Assembly: GCA_951406725.2 (NCBI GenBank)
Contig: OX597814.1
Coordinates: forward strand, 56,048,001 to 56,112,000
Direction: 5' to 3'
Source: Octopus vulgaris
Taxonomy: Eukaryota
Length of the DNA: 64,000 nucleotides
Shown: one piece after another, positions 8,612-20,359 of the stretch
Position numbering within the stretch: position 1 is the first letter of the stretch
Layout: each line of letters opens with the position of its first letter
Position numbers and translations under genes: made by a program
Notes under the pieces: model-generated
Seen by the model: the letters and a program-made list of their open reading frames with translations, nothing else
Told to the model about the DNA's origin: nothing
Databases searched by the model: none

Positions 8612-9925
8612 TGATGTTTCTGATTTAGGCACAAGGCAAAAAATTTTGGTGGAGAGAGTCAATTAAACAGGCCTGAGAACTTGATTGTTGTTATATTTTG
8701 TCAATCCAGAAAGAACGACAAGCAAAGTTAAACTCATTGACATTTGAACTCAGAACATAAATAGCTGTAGATATACCTATTTCTTTATTACCCACAAGGG
8801 GCTAAACACAGAGCGGACAAACAAGGACAGACATAGGTATTAAGTCGATTTCATCGACCCCAGTGCGTAACTGGTACTTAATTTATCGACCCCGAAAGGA
8901 TGAAAGGCAAAGTCGACCTCTAAATAGCTGTAGATATACCACAAGGTATTTTGTCCTGCTCTGTAACAATTTTGTCAACTCACTGCTCTAAATGGTTTGT
9001 AGAGTAGGTGCAAGGCCAGAAATTTAGGGAAGGGGTTTAATTAATCAGATTCATACTAGTACTTGACTGGTACTTTATCTTACTGATTCCCAATGGATAA
9101 AAGGCAAAGTTAACTTCATTTATGCTTGAACTCAGAATATAAAAAAACCCAAAAGTAGTTCCACAAAACATTTTGTTTAACACAGCTTTGATTCTGCAAT
9201 TGTAGTAGTAGTGGTAGCAGTAGTAGTAATGATGATGATGATAACGAATTCTAATTTTGGCACAAGGCCAGCAATTTTGGGGAGGCGTTAAGTTGATGAT
9301 ATCATCCCCAGTGTTTCACTGGTATTTAATTTATTGACCCTGAAAGGAAAAATTGACCTCGGCGGAATTTGAACTCAGAATGCAAAGACGGACAAAATGT
9401 TGCTAAGCATTTTGCCCATTGTGCTAATGATTCTGCCAACTCGCCACCTTAATAATAATAATAATAATAATAATAGTAGTAGTAGTAGTAGTAGTAGTTT
9501 CAAATTTTGGTACAAGGTCAGCAATTTCAGGGGTAGTGTAAATTGATAACATCAACTCTAGCATTTGACTCTGAAAGAATAAAAGGCAAAGCTGATCTCA
9601 GCTAAATAGAACATAAAGATGGACAAAATGCTGCCAAGCATTTTGTCTGGTGTTTTGCCTTTGGTTCCAAGTTTTGGCACAAGGCTAGCAATTTCAGGGA
9701 GTGGGTAAGTTGATTATATAGATCTCAATGCTCAGCTGGATTCATGTTATCAACACCTAATATTACTACTAATAATAATGATATTAATTTTCTACAGAGA
9801 CACAAGGCCTGAAAGTTTGGGAGTGGAAGTTAGTCAATGTTGTTGTCACGGTAGTTGACCAGTGCTTTATCTTATCGATCCTGGTGGGAGTAAAAGTTGC
9901 TCTCAGCAGTATTTGAACTCAAAAC
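7700..9925 (-). mobile_element. Cluster of roughly ten head-to-tail, minus-oriented family A SINE copies and fragments
   Basis: Repeated GGCACAAGGCC...ACTGGTAC...GGCAAAGT...TTTGAACTCAGAA blocks separated by (AAT)n/(AGT)n runs; boundaries approximate. Confidence 0.8.
8778..8920 (-). mobile_element. Young 5'-truncated SINE copy with a 20-bp TSD
   Basis: TAAATAGCTGTAGATATACC occurs exactly at 8758-8777 and 8921-8940; CpGs are retained; tail ...TAGCCCCTTGTGGGTAATAAAGAAATA on the minus strand. Confidence 0.9.
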
Positions 9926-17097: not shown

Positions 17098-19672
17098 CAG
17101 ATATATATATATATATATAAGGTGGCTGATAGTTATTGAATGATCCTTCAACAAGTTAATGTTTTAGGTATAACTATTCCAAACAGCAACCATTAATATA
17201 TCTATGTGTATCTGCCTGTCTGTCAGTCTGTCTGTGCGCATGCACATGTGTGTGTATTTACATATAAAGGCTTGTGAGACTGTTAAACAGATAGTTTTAC
17301 ATCTTGCTACAAGCAGGAAGTATATTGAATGATTGGTAAATATTTTGTTACTTTGCAATGTTGGATTCAATTCTTATCATGGGAAATAACTGCAATAAAC
17401 TGATGTGCCACTCTACTGACCTGATTAAACACACACACACACAAAAAAATGTGATAGAACTTTACATACTACTATTCTATCCAGCAGTGAGGTTCTGGGG
17501 GTGATAAATGAAAATCAATGTACAAAAATCATTAGAAAGAGTCATTTTTCATATGGTGGGTATAAAATAAATAAATTTAATCTACATGTATTATTTGCTT
17601 CGTTTTTGGAACACTGGATCTTAACTAGATAAGTTATAAATAATAGTGTATTCACCTAAAAAAACTTTTAGATAGGCTCTGTATTAAAGTTGGATTGCAG
17701 GTAAGCAGTAAAGAAAACTATTTGTATAGGTGTGAATATGAATAGAAAAAGTGCTGTATGTTGATGTTGGAGAGCACTCAAGGAATAGGAGAATCAAGTA
17801 AGTTGTAAGAAGTGGTCAGATAGAACATTTTAGCCCCATGTCAGATGAGAAAAGACCTCGTATGATATGTTGTACAGCCATCCAGCATGGACTTACAAAG
17901 AAAAATAACCATTCAAATGTTGATAATTATGATGAGTTTTTTTTTTTTTCATTAATAACTACAATCAAAGGATGTTGACACGTGACTCATAGACCAGAGT
18001 TTAAAATTCACTTATTTACATTTTGCTAACTTCACATATAGCACATTGATTACTTTTTCAATTTTATATTTTATTTGCTCCTGTAAATCTAGACTGAAAA
18101 TAATTAGTATCAGTTTAGTTCATTTTGTCTCAAAGCAAGACACATAACTCTGTTATTTCACCATCTGGAAACAGGCATCATCTGCTTGCAACCTAAACAT
18201 CATACGCTGACTCTCTGAACAGAAAACCTTCAGATTATACTACATTGAAGGCATGGTAATTGTTTCTTCAACAGTACAAATATTCAGTTGTGCATACCAA
18301 AGAAAGTGTTTTATACCTCATGGATCTAGTTATGCATAATACACAGTAAAAACCCTCAAAAGTCTTTACACATACTTTTACTTACAATCTCCAAGGACCT
18401 CTCATAGTAAATCCACATATATACAGCTGTCAAAATTTCATCACAGACTAGAATTCCTCTTTACAGTCAGGAAACACTCAGGCCTCAGTCAATTGCATAC
18501 CATTTACAATGCTGTAAGAACTACTTTGCACTAACATTCAAGACCAAATCTAGGAGAAATCCATTCAGCTAATGAGAAATGCTTCAATTACCAATGTACT
18601 TAAATGACTAACTCACAAATGTTCTGTTTATTCTTGAATTCAATAAAAAAGGTACAATGTTGCAAAGTATGGCACTCATCTCTTAGATTGAAAAATGGAA
18701 TTATTTTGTGGACTATCATTCCTTAGTTGTATAGCTAACTTTTTCTGTGATGTTTAGGAGGGTTGAGAATTAAAATCATCTGTGGTGAGTAAATGGTAAA
18801 TTACAAGAGTTCTGTTTATGAATGATATGAGGAATTGATTGTTTTTAGAATTACGATAGGTTGTGGTAAAATGGAAGTAAAACAAAGTAGATTGCAGAAT
18901 GCTAGGTAATTGGTTATTGCATGTTTGCCCAAATCCAATCTAATAGTATCTTGTGACGTTCATGTTCATGACTTTGTCAATGCCATCACATGCTATTGTT
19001 ATTGTCATTGTCATTATTGTCATTATCATTGTCACCTTCATCTTGGTAAGAATATATTTTTCTTGATCATAATTTTAAATGTTAAACATAATTGTAATGA
19101 ATCAGTTAAACATGTCAAGATGTAAGATTATTAACAATATCATACTTTCTATTTTGTGGTCAGTAGTAATTGGTATAAATGATTAAATTTAGATGGAGAA
19201 AACTGTATTTAGTAATAAAATTAACTTAGGTGTAAGACTATATTTTTCTTTATATACCTCTGAATATACTATGTTAAAAAAGAGAAGTATTTTATTGGAA
19301 TATCTTATGTTCTGCCATAAAAAAATATTGTTTTGCCATAAAATGAATATTGCATTGTCTTCACTATATTTATAATAAAATGTCTGGAGAGAAATTATTG
19401 GATGGACCAAGAATGTGAATCTGAAAGCATCGTTGTCAGTGTATGAAAGTTGATAATGAGTCAAACCTTAAAGTGAGGTACAATAGCCATAAATGTAAAG
19501 AACTGACCCACTAAAAACAAATTCTACTACAACAACCACGATGTATGAGTGAAATATATGTTTCAGTGTCTTGCTTCTCATCTCATTCTATCATCATTGG
19601 GCATACAACAAATGTATACACACATGAACATACATGCACACACACACACAGGTTGCATTACTTTCAGTTTCC

Positions 19673-19856
19673 TATTTCTTTATTGCCCACAAGGGGCTAG
19701 AAAAGACCTCTTGATCAGACGGGGCCTCAGGACGATGGGATCCCAGAGCCGCAATGTGCATTCGAGGTGTCGATGTTTACTGAGTCCTGCAATTTGCATC
19801 AGTTCATGCAGATAGCCGCACTCTTCTTTGACAGACGAGCCAAGTGATCCCCCGTC
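19673..19856 (-). mobile_element. Chimeric retroposon (5.8S rRNA body + 27-nt SINE tail) inserted in a family B SINE (about 19640-19980)
   Basis: 8-bp TSD CAGTTTCC at 19665-19672 and 19857-19864; tail 19673-19699 matches 8778-8804 at 26/27; the host SINE resumes (GGAAACTGAAAG on minus) after the insert. Confidence 0.85.
19700..19856 (-). pseudogene. Near full-length 5.8S rRNA retro-pseudogene
   Basis: Minus strand reads GACGGGGGATCACTTGGCTCG...AAGAAGAGTGCGGCTATCTGC...AATTGCAGGAC...AACATCGACACCTCGAATGCACATTGCGGC...GAGGTC, collinear with the metazoan 5.8S consensus; no 18S/ITS/28S flanks. Confidence 0.9.
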
Positions 19857-20359
19857 CAGTTTCCATCTACCAAATGCACCCAAAAGGCTTTGATCAGCCT
19901 AGGGACAAGAAGCTACTTGCCTAAGGTGTCACATAGGGCCTGAACTTGAAACCATTTGATTGGGAAGTAAAACTTCTTATAGGTCTCATTCATTTAATTA
20001 GATGAATATATTGAATTAGAATATGTCAGCAATATTTATTAAATGCAAACTGGAATGGAAAATTGTTTATATCTAACAGCATAGGTTTTGGTACCAGTCC
20101 AGGTTCTTTGCAATCAGTTATAGTTGTTGTTACAAATATCATCTTAATGAAATTGTTGGTTCTTGCCATGATTAATGTTTTATTATTTCTTGTGTGTGTG
20201 TGTGTGTGTGCGCATGTGCTTTCATATATATGTGTGTGTGTGTGCATGTATGTATGTATGTCAGTATTATCTATTTATATATGTATGTATGTATTTATTG
20301 ATGTATATATGTGTGTGTGTATGTATGTATATATATATATATATATTCAAAATGTTACC

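What the first reader, a model, noticed from the sequence alone, without database searches (positions are those of the whole stretch)
19665..19864. 5.8S rRNA::SINE-tail chimeric retroposon with target-site duplication
Seen, on the minus strand: family B SINE head ...GGAAACTG | ~157 nt collinear with nearly the whole mature 5.8S rRNA | 27-nt tail matching the young SINE at 8778 (26/27) | GGAAACTG, then the host SINE resumes. Known: SINE heads derive from tRNA, 7SL, 5S, 28S fragments or snRNA, and LINE RTs make template-switch chimeras such as U6-L1. 5.8S is a processed Pol I product with no promoter of its own, and I do not know of a 5.8S-based SINE family. Inference: either a one-off template switch or RNA ligation onto the 3' end of mature 5.8S, or a member of an undescribed 5.8S-headed retroposon family. 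Because it lies in the same sense just downstream of the host's tRNA-like head, it could also be transcribed by Pol III as a tRNA-CORE-5.8S composite.
Basis: partly seen in the sequence, partly recalled or inferred. Interest (0 to 1): 0.8.

Follow-up and report, generated by a model that had tools for sequence, protein, structure and literature searches.

The report
Recurrent 5.8S rRNA–SINE chimeric retrocopies
This is a DNA copy of mature 5.8S ribosomal RNA fused to the tail of a jumping element, one of at least 45 separate such fusions in this genome, likely made when a retrotransposon enzyme hopped from one RNA to another; the process is known for other small RNAs, but we found no report of it for 5.8S.

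Summary
Window 19859–19707 (minus strand) is a near-complete 5.8S copy (Rfam 89.4 bits; 88% to this genome's rDNA; no ITS). A 7-nt linker and a 27-nt SINE tail follow, and an 8-nt target-site duplication flanks the whole inside an older SINE. The junction is single-copy, yet the structure recurs: 45 of 62 ITS-free 5.8S copies are followed by a same-sense SINE of four families (0 of 62 antisense; 0 of 20 ITS-bearing ends), with different junctions and no shared diagnostic mutations. 5S (18 of 21) and U6 (18 of 30) copies join the same SINEs, and 5S copies outnumber 5.8S. Best reading: independent template jumps by LINE reverse transcriptase from a SINE RNA onto 5.8S, as published for U6/SINE chimeras in platypus and lizard. 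It is not a 5.8S-headed SINE family, and a Pol III composite transcript is unlikely. New: 5.8S as a recurrent donor, and hints that this animal's 5.8S starts about 6 nt inside the Rfam model and ends in an added U.

The parts
19857..19979 (-). 5' part of the host SINE (family B), decayed; first 21 nt of the family head absent; T4 runs at 19972 and 19885
   Evidence: local alignment to natural copy L030, positions 22-149
19857..19864 (-). 5' target-site duplication GGAAACTG (last 1-3 nt also match 5.8S positions 5-7)
19707..19859 (-). retrocopy of mature 5.8S rRNA, rDNA positions 5/7-157 counted from Rfam position 1, no ITS1 or ITS2; carries the older 127C variant
   Evidence: rDNA contigs of three public runs cover the same span with 18 differences
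19700..19706 (-). 7-nt pyrimidine linker TCTTTTC, not in rDNA (rDNA continues CGGTC); likely non-templated, though it can also be aligned weakly to the SINE just upstream of the tail
19673..19699 (-). 27-nt 3' tail of SINE family A (predicted small hairpin plus AATAAAGAAAT end), the likely priming end
   Evidence: (26 of 27 to the copy at 8778), (fold)
19665..19672 (-). 3' target-site duplication GGAAACTG
19608..19672 (-). 3' continuation of the host SINE (family B) into its TG-rich body
8778..8922 (-). young 5'-truncated family-A SINE copy used as the comparison for the tail

Best explanation
This is a 5.8S rRNA::SINE chimeric retrocopy, one of at least 45 separate ones in the genome, likely made when a LINE reverse transcriptase primed on a SINE RNA's 3' tail at a nicked target, copied to the end of that template, added a few untemplated bases and jumped onto the 3' end of a mature or 3'-trimmed 5.8S RNA. 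Shown: the architecture, the TSD around the whole composite, the absence of ITS, the strict same-sense order, four partner families, independent junctions, and the same pattern for 5S and U6. Inferred: the order of synthesis, the jump itself (against RNA ligation), and that the SINE tail is needed because the LINEs are of the stringent, tail-recognising type. The partner LINE was not identified. The copies are likely dead on arrival: 5.8S has no promoter, and no amplification of any copy is seen.
For: A 22-nt internal 5.8S pattern gave 98 matches, control 1; all were fetched and aligned: 62 ITS-free (one local duplicate dropped) and 35 ITS-bearing. A same-sense SINE starts within -10..45 nt of the 3' end in 45 of 62, at the SINE head in 37. 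Controls: antisense 0 of 62, mirror side 5 of 62, ITS-bearing breakpoints 0 of 20, random positions 3.9% (window) and 9.7% (flanks); Fisher p 2.6e-9. Partners among 47 chained loci: A 30, C 7, B 5, D 5. TSD score of 7 or more around the whole composite in 17 of 47 against 3.3% of 369 shuffled pairs; 10 or more in 10 of 47 against 0. Pairs sharing 3 or more non-CpG variants: 3 against a null mean of 3.1; sharing within partner family 0.113 against 0.121 between. Copies with today's 127T variant are younger than 127C copies (0.039 against 0.081, n 9 and 42, p 7e-4), so new copies keep sampling current rRNA. 5.8S and SINE divergence correlate (rho 0.44, p 0.023, n 26). Ordinary young SINE-A copies also often carry T-rich extra bases between TSD and head, and 0 of 30 have 5.8S, 5S or U6 upstream. 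Intact SINE heads imply a 5' triphosphate, which blocks RtcB ligation (PMC6789731, passages). Published parallels: U6/SINE chimeras in platypus and Anolis (PMC4476161 section 10); R2 jumps to U12 and tRNA (PMC3414825, passages).
Against: The jump cannot be seen in DNA; ligation gives the same orientation. The window copy has only a truncated tail, whose RNA could have had a 5'-OH, so ligation is not excluded for it. 30 of 47 composites have no TSD of 7 or more by my scan, and two of the 17 (L028, L115) look doubtful. 17 of 62 ITS-free copies have no partner in my four-copy library. Total sharing of non-CpG variants is slightly above the null (288 against 258 +/- 15; 2.4% of shuffles). L086 and L110 share one junction point, though no variants. 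No LINE sharing a tail with these SINEs was found among 30 RT loci.
Confidence: 0.75

Rival explanations
1. RNA ligation (RtcB type) joined a 5.8S 3' end to a SINE RNA before reverse transcription, as shown for U6/L1.
For: Same-sense order in 45 of 45. About 8 copies, the window's among them, have 5'-truncated partners whose RNA could carry a 5'-OH. RtcB joins U6 to diverse RNAs (PMC6789731, passages).
Against: 37 of 45 keep the SINE head, and a 5' triphosphate strongly reduces RtcB ligation. Most junctions have extra bases of variable sequence. 5S donors keep genomic trailer ending in T runs, as nascent Pol III RNA would.
Confidence: 0.15
2. Sequential insertion: a stand-alone 5.8S retrocopy or rDNA fragment came first and a SINE later landed in its T/A-rich 3' end.
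For: SINEs are dense (9.7% background in flanks). 30 of 47 lack a clear composite TSD.
Against: 0 of 62 antisense neighbours and 0 of 20 at ITS-bearing breakpoints. TSDs enclose both parts. In the window the host SINE is split exactly around the composite.
Confidence: 0.05
3. A self-amplifying 5.8S-headed SINE family descended from one or a few masters.
For: 5' starts cluster at positions 5-9 in 31 of 62. The variant 127C is shared by 42 of 52. Slight excess of total variant sharing.
Against: The window junction is single-copy. There are four partner families and variable ends and linkers. 127C also occurs in 11 of 32 ITS-bearing copies, the older ones, so it is an old rDNA allele. There are no clusters of shared variants.
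Confidence: 0.03
4. The locus is transcribed by Pol III from the host head as a tRNA-CORE-5.8S composite RNA.
For: It lies in the same sense, about 120 nt downstream of the host's 5' end.
Against: The host lacks its first 21 nt, where the A box would lie (box position recalled). Two T4 runs precede the 5.8S part.
Confidence: 0.02

Closest known systems
U6/SINE and U6/L2, U6/RTE chimeric pseudogenes of platypus (Mon-1) and Anolis (AnolisSINE2) (PMC4476161, section 10 read)
   Same: Small RNA 5' of a SINE or SINE tail, same sense, one TSD pair, attributed to template switching by stringent LINEs.
   Different: Here the donor is 5.8S, a processed Pol I product; 5S and U6 also take part; the host is an invertebrate; most partners are full-length SINEs of four families; at least 45 loci for 5.8S alone.
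Human U6/L1, U3/L1, 5S/L1 and 28S/L1 chimeras (PMC13174262, passages; PMC6789731, passages)
   Same: Small-RNA::retroelement composite inserted in one event; rRNA (28S, 5S) already known as donor.
   Different: '5.8S' occurs 0 times in the main text of either paper. Human partners are truncated L1. Human 5S/L1 chimeras are often truncated and antisense, whereas 18 of 21 5S copies here are sense.
R2 template jumps to U12 snRNA and tRNA in Drosophila (PMC3414825, passages)
   Same: Jump from the 5' end of a full template onto a small stable RNA.
   Different: R2 is site-specific and autonomous; there one jump may have founded a subfamily, here no copy has amplified.
rRNA- and snRNA-headed SINE families: SINE3 (5S), SINE28, SINEU (as listed in PMC4758252, passages)
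   Same: A structural RNA forms the head of a retroposed element.
   Different: Those are amplifying families with a fixed structure; these 5.8S copies are independent dead ends.

Membership tests
Small-RNA::retroelement chimeric retrocopies (U6/L1, U6/SINE type) | 5' part is a copy of a mature cellular RNA, without precursor flanks | tested here: met
   No ITS1/ITS2 in the window copy; 62 of 97 distinct copies ITS-free
Small-RNA::retroelement chimeric retrocopies (U6/L1, U6/SINE type) | 3' part is a retroelement with its 3' end, in the same sense | tested here: met
   27-nt family-A tail in the window; 45 of 62 sense, 0 of 62 antisense
Small-RNA::retroelement chimeric retrocopies (U6/L1, U6/SINE type) | One TSD pair encloses both parts | tested here: met
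   8 nt in the window; 17 of 47 against 3.3% null
Small-RNA::retroelement chimeric retrocopies (U6/L1, U6/SINE type) | Independent origin of copies (variable junctions) | tested here: met
Small-RNA::retroelement chimeric retrocopies (U6/L1, U6/SINE type) | Mobilising LINE identified by a shared 3' tail | tested here: inconclusive
   No shared tail seen among 30 top RT loci, mostly one family (part's output was cut)
RtcB-ligated chimeras (U6/L1 mechanism) | Donor ends in 2',3'-cyclic phosphate and acceptor has 5'-OH; chimeric RNA exists apart from the genome | not testable with these tools
   Only contigs were offered, no raw reads
SINE family with a 5.8S head | Many copies with one junction and shared diagnostic mutations | tested here: not met
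   Junction single-copy; no variant clusters
SINE family with a 5.8S head | Internal or upstream Pol III promoter able to transcribe the whole element | tested here: inconclusive
   In the window the host head is truncated and T4 runs precede the insert; other loci not examined for upstream promoters
   ARAGORN found no tRNA gene in 5 loci, which does not test a decayed head; no CORE reference was available

The most novel reading that the evidence does not exclude
These retrocopies are a fossil record of this animal's 5.8S ends: the mature RNA starts about 6 nt inside the Rfam model (starts at position 3 or less in 5 of 62 copies, against 10 of 21 for 5S) and its 3' end at position 157 carries an added U (T follows in 15 of 18 copies ending there, where rDNA has C). 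The LINE enzyme would then jump preferentially onto U-ended RNAs (U6, pre-5S, uridylated 5.8S), so that genomes with stringent LINEs archive rRNA processing and tailing over evolutionary time.
Probability: 0.35. Interest if true: 0.65.

Novelty: new variant of a known kind. Interest (0 to 1): 0.5.

Why it matters
It extends the small-RNA chimera class to 5.8S, a promoter-less Pol I product, and to an invertebrate, with dozens of independent loci. Because most partners keep the SINE's 5' head, the set favours template jumping over RtcB ligation, a question still open for U6/L1. It shows the raw step by which SINEs are thought to gain new heads happening repeatedly, and that 5.8S fusions do not go on to amplify, which fits the absence of known 5.8S SINEs. 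The copies also give testable predictions for the 5' and 3' ends of this animal's 5.8S RNA.

Tried and rejected
Family hypothesis: rejected. A special preference for 5.8S: rejected; an equivalent 22-nt 5S pattern gave 823 matches against 98 for 5.8S, although an unknown share of the 823 lies in the tandem 5S array. Linker as a pure uridylation tail of 5.8S: weakened, because about half of ordinary young SINE-A copies with a clear TSD also carry T-rich extra bases; only the first-base bias remains. Linker as an old ITS2 variant: rejected; old ITS-bearing copies continue with C or CpG-decayed T then GG. Expression: no RNA holder listed on record; in 4 runs of contigs no listed piece spans the stretch or a joint, which is not evidence of silence. 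Partner LINE: not found. U2: the 30 best copies all had shared gene flanks and no SINE, so the search was uninformative about retrocopies. ARAGORN, the window repeat scan and the bacterial promoter scan added nothing. Earlier scan notes: none found. Literature searches that found no 5.8S chimera or 5.8S SINE report; these cover only the open library, and supplements were not read, so repeat-library entries or tables could still list such copies.

Full report
Observation. On the minus strand the window reads: host SINE, GGAAACTG (19864-19857), 5.8S (19859-19707), TCTTTTC, a 27-nt tail (19699-19673), GGAAACTG (19672-19665), host SINE again. RF00002 matches at 89.4 bits, E 1.7e-22. Against an rDNA unit of the same genome the copy is 135 of 153 identical and has neither ITS1 nor ITS2. 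Most differences are CpG transitions (11 of 17 at positions 10-150). The tail matches the young SINE at 8778 at 26 of 27, and the host aligns to a natural family-B copy on both sides of the duplicated octamer. The genome has 2.8 Gb in 227 contigs. I take it to be an octopus from the recalled look of its SINEs; this was not tested.

Genome-wide census. A 22-nt CpG-free internal 5.8S pattern with up to 2 mismatches gave 98 matches, against 1 for the reversed control. All 98 were held or fetched and aligned to an rDNA unit with flanks. 35 carry ITS sequence (rDNA units and DNA-level fragments). 63 do not; one is a local duplicate (L087) and was dropped, leaving 62. This is a lower bound, since older copies fail the pattern. 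With four natural SINE copies as a library (families A-D, my labels), 45 of 62 have a same-sense SINE starting within -10..45 nt of the 5.8S 3' end, 37 of them at the SINE head. Controls: antisense 0 of 62, mirror side 5 of 62, 3' breakpoints of ITS-bearing fragments 0 of 20, random positions 3.9% in the window and 9.7% in flanks. Some of the 17 unassigned copies are followed by other repeats (L078, L093, L101). A TSD score of 7 or more encloses the whole composite in 17 of 47 against 3.3% of 369 shuffled pairs, and 10 or more in 10 of 47 against none; two of the 17 look doubtful.

Family or independent events. The window's junction occurs once in the genome at up to 2 mismatches. The junction table shows variable 5.8S ends (positions 91-161), variable linkers and variable partner starts. 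L086 and L110 share a junction point but no variants. Frequently shared variants are CpG decay, except 127 T>C in 42 of 52 ITS-free and 11 of 32 ITS-bearing copies. 127T is today's allele (rDNA units; public contigs), and 127T chimeras are younger than 127C ones (median divergence 0.039 against 0.081; p 7e-4). New chimeras therefore keep drawing on the current rRNA, not on an old master. Pairs sharing 3 or more non-CpG variants number 3, against 3.1 expected; sharing is the same within and between partner families; total sharing is slightly above the null (288 against 258 +/- 15). Divergence of the two parts is correlated (rho 0.44, p 0.023, n 26).

Other donors. Of 12 dispersed full-length 5S copies, 11 are followed by the same SINEs or tails by inspection. 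In a sample chosen by an internal pattern, 18 of 21 dispersed 5S copies are followed by a sense SINE and none by an antisense one (9 array loci left out). For U6, 18 of the 30 best copies hit the library, and 5 of the remaining 12 form a gene-like array. The 5S pattern has 823 matches against 98 for 5.8S (array share unknown), so 5.8S is a minor donor in a general process. The 30 best U2 copies were genes. None of 30 ordinary young family-A SINEs, the first listed of 1920 exact matches, has 5.8S, 5S or U6 upstream.

Mechanism. In target-primed reverse transcription the 3' part is copied first (established knowledge), so the SINE tail primed and 5.8S was added second. Template jumping and RNA ligation both give this order (PMC13174262, passages). 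I favour jumping (0.75). First, 37 of 45 partners keep the SINE head, whose Pol III 5' triphosphate would hinder RtcB (PMC6789731, passages). Second, most junctions have extra bases, and ordinary SINE-A insertions often carry similar T-rich extras at their 5' end, as expected if the enzyme adds bases at the end of a template. Third, several linker-free junctions show microhomology between the 5.8S end and the SINE head. For the window's tail-only copy ligation is not excluded. Sequential insertion is contradicted by orientation and TSDs. The mobilising LINE was not found among 30 top RT loci. The Pol III composite is unlikely: the host lacks its first 21 nt and has T4 runs at 19972 and 19885. 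No listed contig spans the junction in four runs, which cannot show silence.

Ends of 5.8S. 31 of 62 copies start at positions 5-9 and only 5 of 62 at position 3 or less, against 10 of 21 for 5S (Fisher p 2e-4). TSD-bounded copies agree with a start near 7. This suggests a mature 5' end about 6 nt inside the Rfam model, but 8 of 21 5S copies also lose 2-6 nt, so loss during insertion contributes. At the 3' end, 18 copies reach position 157 and 15 continue with T where rDNA has C; copies ending before 150 continue with A in 13 of 21. Germline uridylation of 5.8S is reported in C. elegans (PMC7472701, passages), but bases added by the enzyme would look the same. Both points are inference and need RNA end mapping; only contigs were available.

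Comparison and novelty. The closest published cases are U6/SINE chimeras in platypus and Anolis, attributed to template switching by stringent LINEs (PMC4476161, section 10 and passages), human small-RNA/L1 chimeras including 5S and 28S (PMC13174262), and R2 jumps (PMC3414825, passages). The window copy meets the structural tests for this class and fails the test for a SINE family. Seven full-text searches (listings only) found no report of 5.8S chimeras or a 5.8S SINE. PMC5322556 names 5.8S only as a search input (one passage). A recent octopus repeat annotation lists 5S, U and U-L1 SINE categories but no 5.8S one in its Table 1 (PMC13282606, first of three parts read). PMC4824008 and PMC4758252 were read as passages and PMC6007223 as abstract. 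Supplements and subscription papers were not seen.

Verdict. A real feature and a new variant of a known kind: recurrent, independent 5.8S::SINE retrocopies, not a family. Interest 0.5.

Noticed in passing
window 8759-8940: The young family-A SINE piece at 8778-8921 is flanked by a 19-nt direct repeat (8759-8777 and 8922-8940) and sits inside an older copy of a related SINE: a nested insertion with a long TSD.
   Followed up: partly
L150-L158, L250, L260-L279: 5S::SINE chimeras often keep 5-14 nt after the 5S end. Some match the trailer of the held 5S array; two other trailers recur across unrelated partners and may come from older or unseen 5S gene variants, which points to nascent pre-5S as the template.
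   Followed up: partly
L025, L052, L116, L151, L155, L157, L173, L174, L178, L184, L187, L272, L273, L279: A ~45-nt tail with a predicted double hairpin is joined to 5.8S, 5S and U6 at almost the same nucleotide many times, suggesting a discrete minimal template or a strong stop for the enzyme.
   Followed up: partly
L001, L047, L075, L095; L073, L079, L086, L089; L023, L071: Chimeras ending in family A repeatedly inserted at the same few sites inside other SINEs, at motifs resembling the family-A 3' end, suggesting target choice by tail-target pairing.
   Followed up: no
L076: A 5S-like stretch lies directly upstream of the 5.8S part, which would make a tripartite 5S::5.8S::SINE chimera (seen flank, compared by eye).
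   Followed up: no
L019, L023, L050, L071, L073, L089, L110: Family-A SINEs often carry tandem re-duplications of their 3' 180 nt inside one TSD pair.
   Followed up: no
L191-L219: A young LINE family with an (ATT)n end and open frames up to about 950 aa dominates the best RT hits; its tail does not match the four SINEs.
   Followed up: partly
L167-L171; G000:C20:23.96-24.07 Mb; G000:C4:35.2-35.3 Mb: A tandem array of variant U6 genes, an rDNA array with about 18.4-kb spacing, and the 5S gene array.
   Followed up: no
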